Source of the DNA: a virus
Length of the DNA stretch: 39,249 nt
IMG/VR virus record: IMGVR_UViG_3300045988_033237
Direction: 5' to 3' (one strand)
Shown here in pieces: positions 1 through 39,249 of this stretch; position 1 is the stretch's first letter, and each line of letters opens with the position of its first letter. Both the position numbers and the translations under genes were made by a program. The notes under the pieces are model-generated. The model searched no databases, was not told the DNA's origin, and saw only the letters and a list, made by a program, of their open reading frames with translations.

Positions 1-119
1 ACATAGGAAAGGAGAACGACATGGAAAAGAAATTCAATGAAGAAGTGTACAGAAACGGATCAGAAGTTGTTTGCGACGCCTGCGGATCTGTAATTAAACA
101 CATAAATGTGAAAGCAAGG
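1..119. repeat. Terminal direct overlap, copy 1 (identical to 39131..39249)
   Basis: Read by eye: acataggaaaggagaacgacatgg...aaagcaagg at 1..119 recurs exactly at the window end; implies a circular or terminally redundant 39,130-bp unit. Confidence 0.95.
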
Positions 120-398: not shown

Positions 399-586
399 TG
401 CAGATGAACATCGAAAGAATGATAAATGCAACAGGATCGTTGCTGATCTGGCTTGTGATGATACTGGCAGCAGTGATTCTTGCAGGTCTGATCATAATTG
501 CAGCAAAGGCAATCAGTCAGGGCATTAAAGATATGGACAGGAAAGGAGAAAGGAAAGATGCAGATAACAACACTTCCGAAAGATGA
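395..586 (+). CDS. Small membrane protein (one hydrophobic helix)
   Basis: ATGA overlap with upstream stop; LLIWLVMILAAVILAGLIIIAA hydrophobic segment. Confidence 0.5.
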   Translation: MMQMNIERMINATGSLLIWLVMILAAVILAGLIIIAAKAISQGIKDMDRKGERKDADNNTSER

Positions 587-950
587 TGTAAAAAGAGGAG
601 AAATCTATTATATAAGCCGGGGAGGATACAACACAGGAAGCGAACAGCAGGCAGACAGACCGGGCGTGATCGTCAGTAATGATAAAAATAATAAAAATAG
701 TCAGACATTGGAAGTTGTATATTTGACAACGCAGCCGAAGAATGAACTTCCGACACATTGCACGATTCGATCAACAGGGCGCGTCAGCACTGTTTTGTGT
801 GAACAGATCCACACAGTCGCTGTGGAACGCATTGGGAAATACATCGGAGTGTGTACAGCACAGGAGATGCAGAACATCGACATAGGGCTGATGATCTCGA
901 TCGGTTTAGGCGATGGGGGGGGCGACAAAGGACAAAACAGTTGTCGCTGA
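558..950 (+). CDS. PemK/MazF-family toxin-like protein (mRNA interferase fold)
   Basis: ATG 558 preceded by aggagaaagg; VKRGEIYY...RPGVIVSND...VVYLTT pattern typical of PemK/MazF; the 498 start in the ORF track is an upstream extension. Confidence 0.75.
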   Translation: MQITTLPKDDVKRGEIYYISRGGYNTGSEQQADRPGVIVSNDKNNKNSQTLEVVYLTTQPKNELPTHCTIRSTGRVSTVLCEQIHTVAVERIGKYIGVCTAQEMQNIDIGLMISIGLGDGGGDKGQNSCR

Positions 951-19929: not shown

Positions 19930-20736
19930 GTGGCACTTGGAAAAGTAATTCAGCGAATTGAAATCGAAATGTCGGGTGGGACAAAACAGTATATGGTGTC
20001 TGCAAAACAGGGAGATCGGGCAACAAGATATGTCGAAACCGTACTACTGAATCATGGGGAACCGTACACGATCCCGGCAGGATCCAGCGTCACAGCTTTC
20101 ATCAGAAAACCAGATAGACACAGGGTATATACACCGTGTGAATTCACGGACAATGTTGTGATGGTGGAATTGGACAGTCAGGCACTGGCAGCAGCGGGAA
20201 CGGCATTGTGTGAAGTGGAAGTGAAATCTTCAGATCTGATGCAGGTGGTAACATCGGTCACTTTTGAAATAGAGATTGAAGCAAAGGTGAAAGATGAAGA
20301 TGCGATCGTTTCGGGCGATGAACTTTCTATCTTCGATAAGACAATGAAACAGTATGCTGATCAGGAAACGAAACGTGTGAACGCAGAAGAAGCCAGAGTG
20401 CAGGCAGAAACAGGTCGCGTGAAGGCAGAGGAAGCCAGAGTGCAGGCAGAAACAGGTCGCGTGAAGGCAGAGGAAGCCAGAGTGCAGGCAGAAACAGGTC
20501 GTGTGAACGCGGAAAAAAGCAGAGTGTCAGCAGAAAGTGATCGCGTCACGGCAGAACAGGAAAGACAGAAGCAGGCGAATGAAGTTCTGGATAAGGCAAA
20601 TGAAGCTGTAAAAATTGCGGGGCAGATCAATGAAGCGTCATATATGTTGGATAAAGATGAAAATATCAAATATGCATATGCAATTTATACAGAACGGGGG
20701 ATCCCGCATCTGGCATTAACACCGATCAATGAGTAA
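19930..20736 (+). CDS. BppU-N-like fibre/baseplate protein with coiled-coil stalk
   Basis: GTG after aggaggga; N-terminal SAKQGDRATRYVETVLL...YTIPAGSSVTAFIRKPD resembles BppU N-domain; 14-aa repeat stalk. Confidence 0.6.
   Translation: MALGKVIQRIEIEMSGGTKQYMVSAKQGDRATRYVETVLLNHGEPYTIPAGSSVTAFIRKPDRHRVYTPCEFTDNVVMVELDSQALAAAGTALCEVEVKSSDLMQVVTSVTFEIEIEAKVKDEDAIVSGDELSIFDKTMKQYADQETKRVNAEEARVQAETGRVKAEEARVQAETGRVKAEEARVQAETGRVNAEKSRVSAESDRVTAEQERQKQANEVLDKANEAVKIAGQINEASYMLDKDENIKYAYAIYTERGIPHLALTPINE
20383..20508 (+). repeat. 3 x 42-bp tandem in-frame repeats (AEEARVQAETGRVK)
   Basis: Units at 20383..20424, 20425..20466 and 20467..20508, counted base by base. Confidence 0.95.
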
Positions 20737-20753: not shown

Positions 20754-22463
20754 ATGGAAGGAATTGATTTATCATTTCCGTCTTATGCACAGCATGAGAG
20801 AATGGCGGCGGCACTGGAAGCGATCGCACTGAATGGCGGACAGAATTCGGCGGAAGCACTTGACGCTGCGTGCAGACAATTACTTGACGGAACAAATACA
20901 ACACGGGTTTTCTGGTCATGGTATCCGCGTGCGCTGGCAGCAGGAGAAACAGACAAGTATAAATTGCTTTCACGATTTGCAACAGCAGCAGCGCAGGCAT
21001 GGAATGGAAAGACATATACACTGCGAAGCTATGATCAGTCAGTATCAGGAATAACAAAAATGACACCGATGGATGATCTGGCAGATAAAGCGGCAGCACA
21101 GCTATGTACAGAAAATACTGAAGCGGTCGAGGACTGGGCGGATGAAGATCCGATGACATGGTATATCAGAGCAAACGCGCTGTCACTGGAAGACGGAACC
21201 ATGAACATCACATATTTTGAAGGTGAAGACGGTTTTGACATCACTGGTGAAGATGCACCAGTATATACATTTGCGCTTGCATTATGGATTAAAGAATGGA
21301 ATGACGGTGCATACGATTATATTTCATTCAGAACAACAAGGGGATCCGGCTATTATCCGGATGCGGGGGATGTGGATCCGAAAAATAAAAAGCGACTGAT
21401 CACATGGCACGCAACATTCCCCGGTGGTCTGGACAGCAAAGGCGCGTTGACATCCGGCGCAGGGATCAAGGCATATAACTTCGCATCAGCAACGGCAGGG
21501 ATCCAGAAGGCACGACAGAAAACAATTTATGAAGGACTGTGGAATGACTGCGATACAAGATGGATTCTTCGTATGTGGCAGTTAAGGCATTTTGATCTGG
21601 AAAACTCAAACATTGCCGAAGGATGCACAAATTACAACTATCAGTACATGGCGGCGTTGCCGGAAGAAAATGTGAAAAGGGTTCTTCTGTCTGCAAGTCA
21701 GGCAGCAGGATTCATTGTCGGATCCACGGTATCGGTTGGTGATATGGGCGCACAGTCGAATAAAGACAGATGGAATGCATGGATGCGTAACCTTGCGGAT
21801 CTGGTGAAAGTATCTTCAATCGAAAAAGTAACAGTAAACGGAACGGAATACACAGCGATCAATCTTGACATCAGCGGAACGATCACAACGACAGCAACAA
21901 CGTGTATTTCAACTATGCCGTGGCATTCGGGCGCAACAGAAGCATTGCCGGGACATAAAGACGGATGCACATTCAGCCTGACAGCAGGAAAGACACCGCT
22001 TCGTGTTGCTGGTGTAGAAGTTTTGGATGGATCATATACGATCGGACTGGATCCACTGTATGACACGACTGCAAACGAAGCAGGAGGATTTGATTATACT
22101 GTGTATCAGTGCCGCGACAGTCAGAAACTGTCAGGATCAATCACAGCGGACTATGAAGATACAGGCATTGTATATTCCGGTATGCCGTCCGGATGGAACT
22201 ATGTGAAAGCATTTATCAAGTCAAAGTTGGGTGTGCTGTTTCCGAAGCTGATCGGCGGATCTTCAACGACTTATTTTAAGTCGGCTTTCTACGGTGCCTA
22301 CTCCGCCGGGGTTCGCTGCCCGTGGCGTTTTGCGCTCTTGAGCTCTGGCGGGGCTGCTGGTCTGGCTGCGGAGGCTGGCAGCGTTGCGCCGGGTAGCTCG
22401 TACTGGTACAGTCGTCCGCGGCTTTGTGGCGCGGGTAAAAAGCGGGGTGAATGGTCTGCGTAA
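20754..22463 (+). CDS. DGR target protein: putative receptor-binding tail fibre protein with C-terminal variable (C-type-lectin-like) region
   Basis: 569 aa, last gene of tail module; last ~50 codons are the VR; NAGL...NNAPGNSNWN-type sequence (seen in the TR reading) is typical of CLec-fold DGR targets. Confidence 0.85.
   Translation: MEGIDLSFPSYAQHERMAAALEAIALNGGQNSAEALDAACRQLLDGTNTTRVFWSWYPRALAAGETDKYKLLSRFATAAAQAWNGKTYTLRSYDQSVSGITKMTPMDDLADKAAAQLCTENTEAVEDWADEDPMTWYIRANALSLEDGTMNITYFEGEDGFDITGEDAPVYTFALALWIKEWNDGAYDYISFRTTRGSGYYPDAGDVDPKNKKRLITWHATFPGGLDSKGALTSGAGIKAYNFASATAGIQKARQKTIYEGLWNDCDTRWILRMWQLRHFDLENSNIAEGCTNYNYQYMAALPEENVKRVLLSASQAAGFIVGSTVSVGDMGAQSNKDRWNAWMRNLADLVKVSSIEKVTVNGTEYTAINLDISGTITTTATTCISTMPWHSGATEALPGHKDGCTFSLTAGKTPLRVAGVEVLDGSYTIGLDPLYDTTANEAGGFDYTVYQCRDSQKLSGSITADYEDTGIVYSGMPSGWNYVKAFIKSKLGVLFPKLIGGSSTTYFKSAFYGAYSAGVRCPWRFALLSSGGAAGLAAEAGSVAPGSSYWYSRPRLCGAGKKRGEWSA
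22281..22428 (+). repeat. DGR variable repeat (VR)
   Basis: 148 bp aligning to 22538..22685 at offset 257; 20 mismatches, all at TR adenines. Confidence 0.92.
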
Positions 22464-22470
22464 GCAGACC
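22453..22470. promoter_or_regulatory. Hairpin ggtctgc-gtaa-gcagacc just 3' of VR, spanning the target stop codon
   Basis: 7-bp perfect stem and 4-nt loop read directly; the position matches the VR-flanking hairpin/cruciform known from the Bordetella phage DGR. Confidence 0.6.
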
Positions 22471-22537
22471 AGAGGGGCAAGACCACTCATACACACCTAA
22501 CAGGAAAAGAAAATAAAAAGGGTATGCAGGCGCGGGA

Positions 22538-22685
22538 TCGGCTTTCTACGGTACCAACTCCGCCGGGGTTCGCTGCCCGTGGCGTTTTGCGAACTTGAAC
22601 AATGGCGGGAATGCTGGTCTGGCTGCGGAGAATGGCAACAATGCGCCGGGTAACTCGAACTGGAACAGTCGTCCGCGAATTTATG
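22538..22685 (+). ncRNA. DGR template repeat (TR), template portion of the TR RNA
   Basis: Non-coding invariant copy of VR; 29 adenines; reads as 11 AAY codons in the VR frame; RT gene 195 bp downstream. Confidence 0.92.
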
Positions 22686-22880
22686 TATTTATGAAGGCAG
22701 GTGAAAACTTGCTGAAATGTGTCTGTATATCCGCGCATAAGCGAAAATCAGTAAAACCGGAAGCCGGGAAACCGGCATGTATAACCGTGGGTTATGCGTG
22801 CGGCAAGTAGTAACAAGACGAATTCTGATTCAAGGATCTGTCGCAACCGAAAGTCGCTTCACACATAAAGTAAAAATAAG

Positions 22881-24275
22881 ATGGCACATAAAAAGAGATA
22901 TAAAAAGTTAAGCAGGCAGCTGTGCGAACAGGCAGTTGTTGAATGTTTCAAAGGAAAATGGAGAAGAAACGATGTACTGACGTTTATTGAAAAGTATGCA
23001 GGAATTCCACGCGACGATATAAAAATAGATGATTTATCCGGATCGTGGAAGTATAAAAATGAAGCTGTTGAAGCGATTGGCTTGGTAATGCTTGGGATTG
23101 TGGAAGATCTGGTCGATCACGGAATAGAACCGGATGATATGGAACCAGTGACGATCCGGCAGCGTCCGGATGGAATGACAGGAAAGATCAGGGACATTGC
23201 ACTGTTGTGCATTATGCATCAGCTGATCGGTCATATTACGAAACTGATGATAGAACCATTGATTCAGGCGCGATTGCTTCCAACACAACATGCAAGCATT
23301 CCGGGACACGGGCAGACAATGCTGAAAGATCAGATGTTGCGTTATTTCCTGAAGGAATCGCTGGGAATTGAATATGTGAGAAAAACAGATGTTGTACATG
23401 CATATGCTTCGCTTCAATACGATGTATGCATAGATCTGGTGATGGTGGAGATTCCGAAAGCAAGATATGCGATCGGGCTGCTGAAATATTTGAAAAGCGT
23501 CGCACCGGGTGGACATCTGATCATCGGCGGGTATCTTGACGCATGGCTTTTTAATTTTACGATGTCGTATGCGATCCGCTATCTGTACACGCTGGGATCA
23601 ACGCGAAGAGGGAAAAAGATACCGTATGTTATACGCTGCGGAACATTTATGGATGATTTTTCGATAGGATCCGGATCTATAAAAGGAGAACAGCGGGCAG
23701 TGAAAGCATTGGACAAGTGGTTAACAAAGAATCAGCACTTGCAGATAAAAGAAACGACAGGAATTATTAAGCTGTTGCCGATTGAAGAAGAAAAGCGAAG
23801 GCGAAATCTGCCGCGTCCGGGGCAAAGGGGCGTCCCGATGCTGGACATGGCAGGATACAGAATCAGCAGAACACACATCACGATCCGGCGGCGCGTATTC
23901 AAAAGGGCAAGACGACAGCTGATACGCGGATATAGAGAACTGAAGCGTGACGGAACACTGCGCCGTGAACGGGCGCAGAAGATAATATCGTATAACAGCT
24001 ATATTGAACAATCTGATTCATTCCATTTACAAGAAAGATACCACACAGAAGAACTGCTTCAGGTGGCGCATCGCGTAAATGGATTCTATGGACAACTGGA
24101 ATATCAGAAAAGAATGGAGGAATTGCATGATTTACTTGAACGTAGATGCAGATCAGAAGCCGGAAAAGGTAATGATGGAAAATCTTCCGGGTGGCGCAAT
24201 GACCGTCAGGATGGCGGACAATATCAAGGAATACCGTCAGGAAGACGCAAAGGATCGGAAGATGTACCGTTTTGA
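22881..24275 (+). CDS. DGR reverse transcriptase
   Basis: RT motifs by eye: GKIRDIALL...HASIPGHGQ (1-2), YVRKTDVVHAYASL (3), IIGGYLDAWLFN (4), FMDDFSI (5), LQIKETTGIIKL (6), MLDMAGYRI (7); N-terminus CFKGKWRRNDVLTF resembles Brt; weak RBS; last ~50 codons overlap the next ORF. Confidence 0.9.
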   Translation: MAHKKRYKKLSRQLCEQAVVECFKGKWRRNDVLTFIEKYAGIPRDDIKIDDLSGSWKYKNEAVEAIGLVMLGIVEDLVDHGIEPDDMEPVTIRQRPDGMTGKIRDIALLCIMHQLIGHITKLMIEPLIQARLLPTQHASIPGHGQTMLKDQMLRYFLKESLGIEYVRKTDVVHAYASLQYDVCIDLVMVEIPKARYAIGLLKYLKSVAPGGHLIIGGYLDAWLFNFTMSYAIRYLYTLGSTRRGKKIPYVIRCGTFMDDFSIGSGSIKGEQRAVKALDKWLTKNQHLQIKETTGIIKLLPIEEEKRRRNLPRPGQRGVPMLDMAGYRISRTHITIRRRVFKRARRQLIRGYRELKRDGTLRRERAQKIISYNSYIEQSDSFHLQERYHTEELLQVAHRVNGFYGQLEYQKRMEELHDLLERRCRSEAGKGNDGKSSGWRNDRQDGGQYQGIPSGRRKGSEDVPF

Positions 24276-24528
24276 TGAAGTGGTGTTTGAACTTCCGGCG
24301 GACAGCACGATCACGACAAAACAGATCGAAGATGACTTTGAAAAATACTGGGAGTACGGGAAGACTGATCAGGCTGGAAAAGACGAAGACATGAAAGATG
24401 ATGAACCGGATCCGGAAAGTGGGGGAATGACGCGGGCAGAAATGACCGTTGAAATTCAGAAACTTCAGGAAAAAAATGAAATGCTGGAATCCTGTCTGCT
24501 GGAAATGTCGGAGCTTGTATATGCTTAA
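24127..24528 (+). CDS. Hypothetical acidic protein
   Basis: ATG 24127 after ggaggaattgc; upstream part of ORF 24079 overlaps the RT; C-terminal coiled coil EIQKLQEKNEMLESCLLEM. Confidence 0.55.
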   Translation: MIYLNVDADQKPEKVMMENLPGGAMTVRMADNIKEYRQEDAKDRKMYRFDEVVFELPADSTITTKQIEDDFEKYWEYGKTDQAGKDEDMKDDEPDPESGGMTRAEMTVEIQKLQEKNEMLESCLLEMSELVYA

Positions 24529-24580: not shown

Positions 24581-24742
24581 ATGATGGCTATGTTATGGGC
24601 GCAGAAGATCATGTATGCGGAAACAAAAGAAGAAGCGATTGCACTGTACAAAAGAGTGCCGCGCCTTCTGAAAGATAAGGTCGAACAGATCCTGATCGAA
24701 AGCGGATGCGAAGATCTGATCAAAGAGAGCGAAGAACAGTAA
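24581..24742 (+). CDS. Small conserved phage protein (53 aa) upstream of lysis genes
   Basis: ATG 24581 after gggaaggagggtgaaacg; the upstream part of the tracked ORF lacks an RBS. Confidence 0.5.
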   Translation: MMAMLWAQKIMYAETKEEAIALYKRVPRLLKDKVEQILIESGCEDLIKESEEQ

Positions 24743-27073: not shown

Positions 27074-27829
27074 ATGTTTTATGTTGGAAACACTTTCGAT
27101 AAAAAAGTAAATAAGGGATACAAAACAATCAAGAACGCAAAAAAGGAAGCAGAAAAGAATGGCTTGTCAGTATGGGATGAAGAAGGTGTAAAGCTGTATC
27201 CGTTGAAAGTTGAAGCGACAGATGACGTTCCTGATGATGCGGCACTGGAAGAAAAACCGGATGGATCTGTGAATGCATATGATGAAAACGGGGAAAAAGT
27301 TGGCGAAGTTCCGGCTGAAGAAGTGAAAGAAATAATGGATGAAATCACAGCAGAAGACATTGAAGCAGCGGCGGCAGCAGCAAGAAGCGAAGAAGAAGTA
27401 CAAGGTGTAAAGCTGTATCCGTTGAAAGTTGAAGTGACAGATGACGTTCCTGATGATGCGGCAATGGAAGAAAAACCGGATGGATCTGTGAATGCATATG
27501 ATGAAAACGGGGAAAAAGCTGGCGAAGTTCCGGCTGAAGAAGTGAAAGAAATAATGGATGAAATCACAGTAGAAGACGTTGAAGCAGCGGCGGCAGCAGC
27601 AAGAAGCGAAGAAGAAGTACATGGAACGATCCGCAGAGTGTTTGATGGAAGGCTTCGCCTTCGCAGAAGACCTTCGTTTGAAGACGATGCAATTTGTGGC
27701 GTGACGATGTTTGATGAAAAGAATGTCGAGAAGAAAGCAAAGATCGGTGACAGGGTACTTTACAAGACGACAGACGGGTACTGGATTTCAGGAGATCCAG
27801 TACACACAGAATTTATTCCGGAGGAATAA
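27074..27829 (+). CDS. Hypothetical acidic repeat protein with SH3-like C-terminus
   Basis: RBS ggaaggaggg; two 73-aa repeats; C-terminal GDRVLYKTTDGYWISGDPV. Confidence 0.6.
   Translation: MFYVGNTFDKKVNKGYKTIKNAKKEAEKNGLSVWDEEGVKLYPLKVEATDDVPDDAALEEKPDGSVNAYDENGEKVGEVPAEEVKEIMDEITAEDIEAAAAAARSEEEVQGVKLYPLKVEVTDDVPDDAAMEEKPDGSVNAYDENGEKAGEVPAEEVKEIMDEITVEDVEAAAAAARSEEEVHGTIRRVFDGRLRLRRRPSFEDDAICGVTMFDEKNVEKKAKIGDRVLYKTTDGYWISGDPVHTEFIPEE
27185..27622 (+). repeat. 2 x 219-bp tandem in-frame repeats (73 aa each)
   Basis: ggtgtaaagctgtatccgttgaaagttgaag... restarts at 27185 and 27404; only a handful of mismatches. Confidence 0.95.
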
Positions 27830-38864: not shown

Positions 38865-39136
38865 TGGCAGATAAAAACAAATTTGTAAAACCGGAATTAA
38901 AGAAATACAGCGCGAAGAAGCTGTTGACACAGGATAGATTGATGAATGCCATGATCGGTATCAGAGAAATTCAGACAAAGCTATGGGAAACGATGCCGGA
39001 TGATCAGTACGAAAAGCTGGAACCGGAATTCGACACAGCGATCGCTGCAATGATGGCGCATATGTGCGGGGTGATGCCTGCACACGCGCAGCCGGATCAG
39101 GAAAACAGTCAAGATATCCTGATGCCTGCAACATAG
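38864..39136 (+). CDS. Hypothetical protein
   Basis: TGATG coupling to parB; stop lies inside the terminal overlap. Confidence 0.5.
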   Translation: MADKNKFVKPELKKYSAKKLLTQDRLMNAMIGIREIQTKLWETMPDDQYEKLEPEFDTAIAAMMAHMCGVMPAHAQPDQENSQDILMPAT

Positions 39137-39249
39137 GAAAGGAGAACGACATGGAAAAGAAATTCAATGAAGAAGTGTACAGAAACGGATCAGAAGTTGT
39201 TTGCGACGCCTGCGGATCTGTAATTAAACACATAAATGTGAAAGCAAGG
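39131..39249. repeat. Terminal direct overlap, copy 2 (identical to 1..119)
   Basis: Same 119 bases as the window start; contains the stop of CDS 38864..39136 and the RBS plus first 33 codons of CDS 21..398. Confidence 0.95.

What the first reader, a model, noticed from the sequence alone, without database searches (positions are those of the whole stretch)
22464..24275. The DGR is atypical: no Avd-like accessory gene, and the RT has IGGYLDA where DGR RTs carry IGxxxSQ
Canonical cassettes place a small basic four-helix-bundle accessory gene (avd) between target and RT, and it is required in BPP-1. Here VR-to-TR is about 110 bp and TR-to-RT is 195 bp. The only ORFs in those gaps are the TR read-through (Asn-rich) and antisense shadows. 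No Avd-like ORF is evident anywhere else in the 39-kb genome. Aligning motif 4 by eye to Bordetella Brt (PIGSLTSQLFAN) gives IIGGYLDAWLFN, so the SQ dipeptide used as the DGR-RT hallmark is replaced by DA. The 20 A-only substitutions nevertheless show that adenine mutagenesis has operated. The RT is also long at 464 aa, with an insertion before motif 1 (RQRPDGMTGKIRDIA), a ~50-residue basic Gly/Arg-rich tail overlapping the next ORF, and almost no Shine-Dalgarno sequence. This may be a divergent, Avd-independent DGR lineage.
Basis: partly seen in the sequence, partly recalled or inferred. Interest (0 to 1): 0.75.

Follow-up and report, generated by a model that had tools for sequence, protein, structure and literature searches.

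The report
Avd-less gut-phage DGR lacking SQ motif
This is a working diversity-generating retroelement in a human-gut Lachnospiraceae phage, from a large lineage that has no Avd helper gene and has replaced the usual "SQ" hallmark of the enzyme with "DA"; Avd-less elements were already known, so it is a variant, not a new kind.

Summary
VR (22281-22428) and TR (22538-22685) differ at 20 positions, and all 20 are TR adenines. The gaps are 109 nt (VR to TR) and 195 nt (TR to RT). No Avd or HRDC homologue is detectable anywhere in this complete 39-kb phage genome. RT motif 4 reads I215-G-G-Y-L-D220-A221, which aligns to Brt I181-G-S-L-T-S186-Q187. The predicted RT fold is closest to Brt.

The element is clearly active. 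In 98-99% identical phages and prophages the TR is constant while every VR differs, only at TR-adenine positions.

DA is found in 111 of 112 close RT clusters. These form one clade, sister to an IIGGYLS[T/S/C] clade, nested among canonical SQ enzymes.

The atypicality is overstated. The nearest SQ-type relatives are just as compact and Avd-less. Published surveys report 29% of DGRs without accessory genes and 10% without SQ. The "insertion before motif 1" is three residues in the fingertips hairpin. The Gly/Arg tail is read-through into a real overlapping gene.

That gene is the most interesting by-product. It is a 133-aa acidic ORF (24127-24528) whose start lies inside the RT 3' end. A copy accompanies this RT clade in every locus examined that extends past the RT. 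It is a candidate accessory factor, untested.

The parts
20754..22463 (+). DGR target gene (569 aa), a tail or receptor-binding-type protein with the VR at its C-terminus
   Evidence: ORF. Matches phrog_17147 (E 8.5e-129) and the 'tail protein' phrog_5302 over residues 445-558. It follows the Dit, Tal, DUF859 and BppU_N tail genes. The C-type-lectin fold was not confirmed: no PDB sequence match.
22281..22428 (+). Variable repeat (VR)
   Evidence: 148-nt repeat of the TR with 20 differences, all at TR adenines. It differs between 98-99% identical phages, only at TR-A positions.
22419..22451 (+). IMH-like 3' boundary of homing (inferred). A GC-rich end of VR/TR identity (GTCGTCCGCG) is followed by VR-specific sequence.
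   Evidence: VR/TR identity ends at 22428-22430. The VR-side flank is strongly conserved across loci. The function is inferred by analogy with BPP-1 (PMC3240598).
22452..22471 (+). Hairpin immediately 3' of the VR. It has an 8-bp stem, and its GTAA loop contains the target stop codon.
   Evidence: Sequence. In an RNAalifold run on 12 loci, 5 of the 8 stem pairs are kept through changes on both sides. It is positionally analogous to the BPP-1 target-recognition hairpin (PMC3240598). A second GAGGGG/CCCCTC stem follows at about 22473-22488.
22538..22685 (+). Template repeat (TR), containing 29 adenines
   Evidence: Invariant or nearly invariant among close relatives whose VRs all differ.
22686..22880 (+). 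Spacer between TR and RT; presumed structured spacer RNA, the counterpart of the BPP-1 Sp segment
   Evidence: Conserved sequence blocks across 14 loci. 16 of 21 predicted pairs are kept through compensatory changes. No Rfam family matches. Priming site not determined.
22881..24275 (+). DGR reverse transcriptase, 464 aa. Motif 4 is IGGYLDA, the catalytic residues are D170 and D258-D259 (FMDD), and R104 corresponds to Brt R74.
   Evidence: phrog_1423 E 9e-36. RVT_1 scores only 21 bits, below its cut-off. AF2 model has pLDDT 93. Best PDB fold match is bRT 8ub7_A/8ubd_A, E 3e-13, TM 0.75-0.80 normalised to the target. Alignments.
24127..24528 (+). Small acidic ORF ('sORF', 133 aa, pI 4.3). It overlaps the last 149 nt of the RT gene in another frame. 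Candidate accessory or phage gene of unknown function.
   Evidence: A GGAGG lies 7 nt before its ATG. The start M-[ILFY]-[YL] is conserved and the ORF is present right after the RT. Present in 71 of 80 SQ-type loci by HMM and in the other 9 by eye. In the overlap its frame is more conserved than the RT frame in six of seven comparisons and equal in the seventh. No Pfam match; matches phrog_37768, function unknown. AF2 pLDDT 80, with no PDB fold match.

Best explanation
This is an active diversity-generating retroelement of a temperate siphovirus-like phage of human-gut Lachnospiraceae. It diversifies the C-terminus of a tail or receptor-binding protein.

The layout is target/VR - 109 nt - TR - 195-nt structured spacer - RT, with no Avd. 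The RT belongs to a large clade of Clostridia-phage DGR RTs that all share this compact Avd-less layout. Within that clade, one sublineage changed motif 4 stepwise: IGSYLSQ, then IGGYLS[T/S/C], then IGGYLDA.

Shown:
- A-specific VR/TR differences, and VR turnover between near-identical phages.
- Conservation of the catalytic Asp residues and of the two residues known to promote adenine misincorporation in Brt (R74 = R104, I181 = I215).
- Absence of any Avd or HRDC homologue.
- A covarying hairpin 3' of the VR and a covarying spacer.

Inferred:
- TR-spacer RNA is reverse-transcribed by the RT with misincorporation opposite A, as in BPP-1, and the cDNA replaces the VR using the GC-rich boundary and hairpin.
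- In BPP-1, Avd braces the RT N-terminal extension and holds the spacer RNA. Here that role is taken over by RT-intrinsic additions, by the longer spacer RNA, and/or by the co-translated acidic sORF. The RT additions are a larger four-helix N-terminal extension, a basic insert at about residues 299-316, and an extra 36-residue C-terminal helix.
- The Ser and Gln of the 'SQ' hallmark are therefore not required for adenine-specific infidelity, even though Gln187 touches the incoming nucleotide in the Brt structure.
For: - A-only mismatches, 20 of 20.
- The same architecture with 9-23 A-specific mismatches in about 30 of 39 DA-type viral loci analysed.
- TR constant and VR different in 98-99% identical phages and in prophages of Hominifimenecus and Fusicatenibacter.
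- RT fold closest to bRT.
- R104, I215, G216, D170, D258 and D259 essentially invariant in about 190 homologues.
- DA in 111 of 112 close clusters. The DA clade is monophyletic and nested among SQ enzymes.
- No Avd or HRDC by Pfam or by a bAvd profile, with the positive control recovered.
- SQ-type sister loci are equally Avd-less.
- Hairpin and spacer covariation.
- Literature: roles of R74 and I181 (PMC7826257); Q187 contacts the incoming dNTP base, and Avd braces the N-terminal extension about 40 A from the active site (bioRxiv 10.1101/2023.10.23.563531); Avd-less architectures (PMC5758913).
Against: - No experiment shows that target, TR and RT alone suffice.
- Avd proteins are 'very poorly conserved', so a very divergent helical homologue could escape profile searches. 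Against that, there is no room for one in the cassette. The only gene that always accompanies the RT (the sORF) is predicted to be beta-rich plus one long helix, and acidic, so it is not Avd-like.
- The SQ-type relatives lack Avd without having all of the extra RT insertions. The 'RT-intrinsic compensation' idea is therefore not cleanly supported.
- The tree is neighbour-joining without support values.
- The C-type-lectin fold of the target was not verified.
Confidence: 0.8

Rival explanations
1. The small acidic ORF overlapping the RT 3' end (24127-24528) is the accessory subunit of this DGR clade. It would be translationally coupled to the RT and would functionally replace Avd, making the element 'Avd-independent' but not accessory-free.
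For: - A copy lies at the RT 3' end in every locus examined that extends beyond the RT (one exception below), whether DA-type or SQ-type. This holds for RT identities down to about 24-26%.
- It is also present in Butyrivibrio phage Arawn, and in 70-, 85- and 176-kb faecal phage scaffolds with different neighbours.
- Its start usually lies inside or abuts the RT stop. In the window it has a strong SD while the RT has none.
- In locus L055 it sits between the target and the TR, which is the canonical avd slot.
- In about 50,700 phage genomes, tblastn with four different sORF queries gave hits in three of the searches, and every full-length hit lay next to such an RT; two further queries found nothing.
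- Precedent: CH1, a small acidic (pI 4.7) accessory gene found only in avd-less DGRs.
Against: - It is acidic (pI 4.1-4.3), with no nucleic-acid-binding signature and no known fold.
- In most loci it is followed by an XkdX-like ORF and the lysis genes. It therefore occupies the position of a tail-fibre-associated gene (XkdW-like slot) and could simply be a phage gene beside which TR-RT always sits.
- Linkage could not be tested against DGR-free phages, because the profile was too divergent for collection scans.
Confidence: 0.3
2. An Avd-like factor is supplied in trans by the bacterial host or by another prophage.
For: Avd proteins are poorly conserved, and only the phage genome and cassette flanks were searched here.
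Against: - The whole RT clade lacks avd, across hosts in Lachnospiraceae, Oscillospiraceae and Ruminococcaceae and across free phage genomes.
- Wu et al. searched the genomes of avd-less DGRs with a profile and found none.
- Dependence on a host gene would be fragile for a phage-borne tropism switch.
Confidence: 0.05
3. The cassette is a decayed relic: an RT with a broken hallmark motif, and a VR/TR pair frozen from past activity.
For: RVT_1 scores below Pfam's cut-off. SQ is absent. There is no Shine-Dalgarno sequence before the RT.
Against: - Catalytic and fidelity-modulating residues are invariant, and the RT is under strong conservation in hundreds of clusters.
- VRs differ between 98-99% identical phages while the TR stays constant.
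- The AF2 model is very confident.
Confidence: 0.02

Closest known systems
Bordetella phage BPP-1 DGR (mtd-avd-TR-brt)
   Same: - TR/VR pair with adenine-only substitutions at the 3' end of a phage tail-protein gene.
- GC-rich homing boundary, followed by a hairpin with a 4-nt loop 3' of the VR.
- A structured spacer between TR and RT.
- The RT fold is the best PDB match (8ub7/8ubd).
- Brt R74, I181 and G182 and the catalytic Asp residues are conserved.
   Different: - No avd; the VR-to-TR gap is 109 nt instead of an avd gene.
- Motif 4 ends in DA, not SQ.
- The RT is 136 aa longer (N-terminal extension, internal basic insert, C-terminal helix).
- Sequence similarity to Brt is near noise (phmmer E about 1).
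- The spacer is 195 nt versus about 140 nt.
Avd-less DGRs: 'Architecture A' and 'Lineage 3' of Wu et al. 2018 (PMC5758913)
   Same: A TR-RT core adjacent to the target with no Avd, HRDC or MSL. Those authors already inferred an Avd-independent mechanism.
   Different: Membership in their named Lineage 3 could not be checked, because the supplementary tables are not held. The DA motif and the conserved RT-overlapping sORF are not described in the text read.
CH1-type accessory genes of avd-less Bacteroides DGRs (Lineage 3a; Wu et al. 2018)
   Same: Small acidic proteins (pI 4.7 versus 4.1-4.3 here) with no recognisable motif, flanking DGRs that lack avd.
   Different: CH1 is 160-169 aa and found in Bacteroides. 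The sORF here is 100-136 aa and found in Clostridia phages. Homology could not be tested because no CH1 sequences were at hand.
Non-SQ DGR RTs listed by Schillinger et al. 2012 (PMC3521204)
   Same: The I/V/L-G part of the motif is kept, the last two residues vary, and the VRs still show A-only changes.
   Different: The reported variants are SP, SH, NQ, PA, AQ and VQ, as scattered cases. Here both positions are replaced (D, A), and the change is fixed in a large, abundant lineage.
Butyrivibrio phages Arawn and Idris (NC_048848, MN882554)
   Same: Cultured Lachnospiraceae phages with a related RT (26% identity). The order is tail protein - 376-nt gap - RT - small overlapping ORF - XkdX-like ORF, and no avd is annotated.
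   Different: The RT is shorter (381 aa). It is a distant member, and its TR/VR was not examined here.

Membership tests
Diversity-generating retroelement (DGR) | TR/VR repeat pair whose differences are confined to TR adenines | tested here: met
   20 of 20 mismatches are at TR adenines. The same holds in about 30 related loci.
Diversity-generating retroelement (DGR) | RT belonging to the DGR RT clade | tested here: met
   The best PDB fold match is bRT. The RT groups with SQ-bearing RTs that themselves sit next to A-biased TR/VR pairs.
Diversity-generating retroelement (DGR) | Signature motif-4 sequence [I/V/L]GxxxSQ | tested here: not met
   The motif is I215-G-G-Y-L-D-A: IG is kept and SQ is replaced. 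The literature already records about 10% exceptions, so this is a hallmark, not a strict requirement.
Diversity-generating retroelement (DGR) | VR at the 3' end of a target ORF, followed by an IMH-type boundary and a hairpin | tested here: met
   The VR ends 35 nt before the stop codon. A GC-rich end of homology is followed by a covarying 8-bp hairpin with a GTAA loop. IMH function is inferred only.
Diversity-generating retroelement (DGR) | Ongoing diversification of the VR with a constant TR | tested here: met
   In the ten near-identical loci compared with the window, every VR differs from the window's while TRs are constant or nearly so.
Diversity-generating retroelement (DGR) | Target variable region displayed on a C-type-lectin (or Ig) fold | tested here: inconclusive
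   No PDB sequence match for the C-terminal 219 aa. Only a 'tail protein' PHROG match.
Canonical BPP-1-type DGR (Architecture B: avd-TR-RT) | Avd gene (basic four-helix-bundle protein) in the cassette | tested here: not met
   No PF22296, PF05635 or HRDC hit. The bAvd HMM found nothing. The intergenic gaps of 109 and 195 nt are too short.
Avd-less DGR (Architecture A, Wu et al. 2018) | TR-RT core next to the target, with no Avd, HRDC, MSL or CH1 accessory gene | tested here: inconclusive
   Avd and HRDC are absent. However, a conserved acidic ORF overlaps the RT and may be an accessory gene. Homology to MSL or CH1 was not testable.

The most novel reading that the evidence does not exclude
The RT-overlapping acidic sORF (24127-24528) is a previously unrecognised accessory subunit of a large clade of Clostridia-phage DGRs. 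It would be co-translated with the RT and would take over the scaffold role of Avd through a completely different (beta-rich, acidic) fold. The DA-for-SQ change would mark a sublineage whose nucleotide-binding pocket achieves adenine-specific infidelity without the Gln that contacts the incoming dNTP in Brt.
Probability: 0.3. Interest if true: 0.65.

Novelty: new variant of a known kind. Interest (0 to 1): 0.45.

Why it matters
1. Mechanism. In the Brt cryo-EM structure, Gln187 of 'SQ' contacts the base of the incoming dNTP. A large natural lineage that keeps adenine-only mutagenesis with Asp-Ala at these positions shows that SQ is dispensable. It also points to R74/I181-type contacts, which are conserved here, as the core determinants.

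2. Annotation. These RTs score below Pfam's RVT_1 threshold, and most clusters carry no Pfam label. Yet one 90%-identity cluster alone holds 4,688 sequences. Pipelines that rely on RVT_1 or on the SQ motif will under-call a common gut-phage DGR type.

3. Engineering. Avd-free cassettes of about 2 kb (TR, spacer, RT, with or without a 133-aa ORF) are attractive for programmable mutagenesis systems, which currently carry bRT plus Avd.

4. Biology of the cassette. The invariant RT-sORF pairing gives a concrete, testable candidate for how Avd-less DGRs work. Wu et al. 2018 left that question open.

Tried and rejected
- phmmer of the RT against PDB sequences gave only a near-noise hit to bRT (E about 1). 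Fold comparison was needed.
- NCBIfam gave no useful RT, target or neighbour hits. An NCBIfam scan of 44 small ORFs lists only the top 25 of 83 families, so it cannot exclude weak four-helix-bundle hits.
I therefore could not scan IMG/VR for sORF copies lacking an RT.
- A scan with the upstream tail protein returned only near-identical phages.
- sORF: no Pfam family, including XkdW. No PDB sequence match and no PDB fold match. BFVD gave only uncharacterised gut siphovirus proteins. tblastn with two SQ-type sORF queries found nothing in the phage collection.
- Rfam gave no family for the VR-TR-spacer region.
- Target C-terminus: no PDB sequence relative, so the CLec fold is unverified.
- The supplements of Wu et al. 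are not held, so Lineage 3, CH1 and PAG membership could not be checked.
- Rejected: the sORF as an Avd homologue (predicted beta-rich and acidic).
- Rejected: mis-registration of motif 4 (three alignments agree).
- Rejected: the 'insertion before motif 1' as a lineage-specific feature.
Full report
**Context.** The window is a complete phage genome. Its first 119 bases are repeated at its end. The large genes all lie on the + strand. They include small terminase, head-completion, tail-tube, Dit, Tal, BppU_N, holin and endolysin genes, plus SSB, ParA, VRR-NUC and a MazF-like toxin. Prophages with 98-99% identical RT occur in Hominifimenecus microfluidus, Fusicatenibacter faecihominis and a gut Eubacteriaceae MAG. 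Two human faecal phage contigs are 96-97% identical over the cassette. It is therefore a temperate siphovirus-like phage of human-gut Lachnospiraceae.

**The observation.**
- A 148-nt direct repeat links the 3' end of a 569-aa tail-module gene (VR, 22281-22428) to a non-coding copy (TR, 22538-22685).
- All 20 differences are at TR adenines, and 19 of 20 fall in codon positions 1 or 2. The chance probability is about 7e-15.
- The gaps are 109 nt (VR to TR) and 195 nt (TR to RT).
- The RT (22881-24275, 464 aa) is divergent. RVT_1 scores 21 bits against a cut-off of 29.6, and Brt is hit by phmmer only at E about 1. It does match the phage RT family phrog_1423 at 9e-36.
- An AlphaFold model built on 92 homologues is very confident (pLDDT 93). 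Its best PDB matches are the Bordetella bRT cryo-EM structures 8ub7 and 8ubd, with E 3e-13 and TM 0.75-0.80 normalised to bRT.

**Motif 4.** Three alignments put Brt P-I181-G-S-L-T-S186-Q187 on I-I215-G-G-Y-L-D220-A221: a 20-sequence family alignment, a 198-sequence MAFFT alignment including Brt, and an L-INS-i alignment.
- DA is present in 111 of 112 close 90%-identity clusters, with one DS.
- Among 50%-identity representatives, the close ones are DA, EA or DS. An intermediate group is IIGGYLS[T/S/C]. The more distant ones (about 22-30% identity to the window RT in the family alignment) are mostly canonical IGSYLSQ.
- In a neighbour-joining tree rooted on Brt, the DA sequences form one clade. 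Its sister is the S[T/S/C] clade, and both nest among SQ enzymes (no support values).
- The residues shown experimentally to promote adenine misincorporation in Brt are R74 and I181 (PMC7826257). Their equivalents R104 and I215 are essentially invariant, as are G216 and the catalytic D170, D258 and D259.
- In the Brt structure, Q187 contacts the base of the incoming dNTP (bioRxiv 10.1101/2023.10.23.563531). Its replacement by Ala in an active lineage is therefore mechanistically informative.

**No Avd.**
- BPP-1 Avd belongs to Pfam PF22296.
- A Pfam-A scan of 47 window ORFs of 40-260 aa on both strands (selected from ORFs of at least 40 aa, dropping those overlapped by more than 35% by a longer ORF) found no Avd-type or HRDC family at E<=1.
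- A profile built from Brt's Avd plus 120 homologues was searched with all filters off against 23,060 six-frame ORFs of the window and about 145 related loci. It recovered only the BPP-1 control.
- 46 IMG/VR loci carry DA-type RTs. About 30 of the 39 analysed show the same layout: VR, then about 90-150 nt, TR, then about 190-290 nt, RT, with 9-23 A-specific mismatches. Loci that scored otherwise had tandem repeats that outscored the pair, or a collapsed repeat.
- The nearest SQ-type relatives are just as compact. 80 IMG/VR loci were fetched. 36 of 37 analysed have a repeat pair with VR-to-TR gaps of 77-160 nt, and the mismatches are A-biased in all but one.
- Avd absence is thus a property of the whole clade, not of the DA sublineage.

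**Activity.** Eleven distinct loci with near-identical cassettes were compared, including the window, three prophages and IMG/VR contigs. The TRs are identical or differ by 1-4 bases. Every VR differs from the window's, almost exclusively at TR-A positions. This is direct population-level evidence of continuing adenine-specific retrohoming.

**Cis elements.**
- VR/TR identity ends in a GC-rich stretch (GTCGTCCGCG).
- The VR-side flank is highly conserved. It is followed by an 8-bp hairpin (22452-22471) whose GTAA loop holds the target stop codon. Five of its eight stem pairs are kept through double changes across loci. This parallels the target-recognition hairpin of BPP-1 (PMC3240598).
- The 195-nt spacer has conserved blocks, and 16 of 21 predicted pairs show compensatory changes. 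No Rfam family matches.
- The priming nucleotide could not be identified.

**Corrections to details of the finding.**
- The 'insertion before motif 1' (RQRPDGMTGKIRDIA) is the fingertips beta-hairpin. It is three residues longer than in Brt and is shared by SQ-type relatives.
- The real extra elements relative to Brt are about 25 residues in the N-terminal helical extension, a hairpin before motif 5, a basic insert at about 299-316 (in the DA and ST groups only), and a 36-residue C-terminal helix.
- The Gly/Arg-rich tail (about residues 425-464) is predicted disordered. It coincides with an overlap with the next gene.
- In that overlap, the other frame is more conserved: 0.59-0.76 identity versus 0.42-0.58 in the five closest comparisons. 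It is higher in six of seven comparisons and equal in the seventh.
- The conserved 'EDVPF-stop' is simply 'KMYRFD' read in the RT frame.
- Where that gene lies elsewhere (locus L055), the RT stops at 430 aa without the tail.
- No SD precedes the RT ATG.

**The overlapping gene (sORF).** An ORF starts at ATG 24127, preceded by GGAGG at a 7-nt spacing. It encodes a 133-aa acidic protein (pI 4.3).
- Homologues start 44-149 nt inside, or abut, the 3' end of the RT gene in every locus but one that extends beyond it. This includes all DA-type loci, 71 of 80 SQ-type loci by HMM and the other nine by inspection, and Butyrivibrio phage Arawn.
- It also holds in faecal phage scaffolds of 70, 85 and 176 kb, where the downstream neighbours differ.
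- In L055 it sits between the target and the TR, which is the avd position.
- It has no Pfam family and matches a PHROG of unknown function.
- Its predicted fold is a four-strand sheet, two short helices and a long C-terminal helix. It has no PDB counterpart and is clearly not Avd-like.
- Two readings remain. It may be a DGR accessory protein; CH1, an acidic accessory found only in avd-less DGRs, is a precedent. Or it may be a tail-fibre-associated phage gene in the slot before an XkdX-like ORF, beside which TR-RT always sits. I could not search for RT-less copies. I rate the accessory reading at about 0.3.

**Comparison with what is known.**
- Wu et al. 2018 report avd in 74% of 372 DGRs. An accessory-free 'Architecture A' makes up 29%. 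A 'Lineage 3' lacks avd. RTs range from 300 to 500 aa, and 20% carry C-terminal extensions. They explicitly infer Avd-independent homing.
- Schillinger et al. 2012 found SQ in 90% of DGR RTs and list SP, SH, NQ, PA, AQ and VQ exceptions with A-only VR changes.
- Roux et al. 2021 describe virus-only DGR clades in gut Firmicutes phages but do not discuss Avd.
- The cassette is therefore a DGR by every functional criterion. It fails two 'hallmarks', Avd and SQ, that the literature already treats as non-universal. What is new is that both SQ positions are replaced (DA), that this is fixed in an abundant lineage, and that the RT clade has an invariant overlapping acidic ORF.

**Verdict.** This is a new variant of a known kind, of moderate interest (0.45). 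The main follow-up value lies in the DA pocket as a natural probe of adenine mutagenesis, and in the sORF as a testable candidate for how Avd-less DGRs function.

Noticed in passing
window 24127-24528 (+), overlapping RT 22881-24275: A 133-aa acidic ORF starts 149 nt inside the RT gene in another frame and has its own GGAGG. In the overlap its frame is more conserved than the RT tail in six of seven comparisons. Homologues accompany this RT clade in every locus seen that extends past the RT, including distant SQ-type RTs and 70-176-kb phages.
   Followed up: yes
window 1-119 and 39131-39249: An exact 119-bp terminal direct repeat. The window is a complete, circularly closed or terminally redundant phage genome of about 39.1 kb.
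   Followed up: partly
L055 5102-5422: In one 46%-identical relative, the acidic sORF lies between the target gene and the TR (the canonical avd slot) instead of after the RT. There the RT ends at 430 aa, without the Gly/Arg tail.
   Followed up: partly
L014 3938-4078: A 99%-identical relative has a single hybrid copy where the VR and TR should be: the 257-nt VR-to-TR interval is missing. This is either a VR/TR recombination deletion or an assembly collapse of the repeat.
   Followed up: partly
L173 1988-2497 (MT835469.1, 176-kb faecal phage): An RNase H-like ORF (169 aa; DG...E...H...NE.AD pattern, recognised by eye) lies immediately upstream of a related DGR-type RT and its sORF.
   Followed up: no
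window 20365-20574, within ORF 19930-20736 (BppU_N protein): Tandem 21/42-nt repeats encode a reiterated AEEARVQAETGRVK coiled-coil segment. The copy number differs between relatives: L014 aligns with an 84-nt shorter interval, and L003 has a different repeat set.
   Followed up: no
window 22473-22488: A second conserved stem (GAGGGG...CCCCTC) lies directly after the VR hairpin. In the window one arm carries a mismatch (CCACTC). Function unknown; it may be a terminator or part of the target-recognition structure.
   Followed up: partly
window 498-950 (+): A PemK/MazF-like toxin gene (Pfam E 1e-20) sits in the phage early region, followed by a small Lys/Glu-rich ORF (913-1104) that could be its partner.
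   Followed up: no
window 27074-27829 (+): A 251-aa ORF after the endolysin contains an internal, near-perfect duplication of about 85 aa (GVKLYPLKVE.TDDVPDDAA...AAAAAARSEEEV).
   Followed up: no
window 24581-24742 (+): An XkdX/CD1375-like small ORF (MMAMLWAQKIM...) follows the sORF. The same order (RT, sORF, then an XkdX-like ORF) recurs in many but not all related loci.
   Followed up: partly
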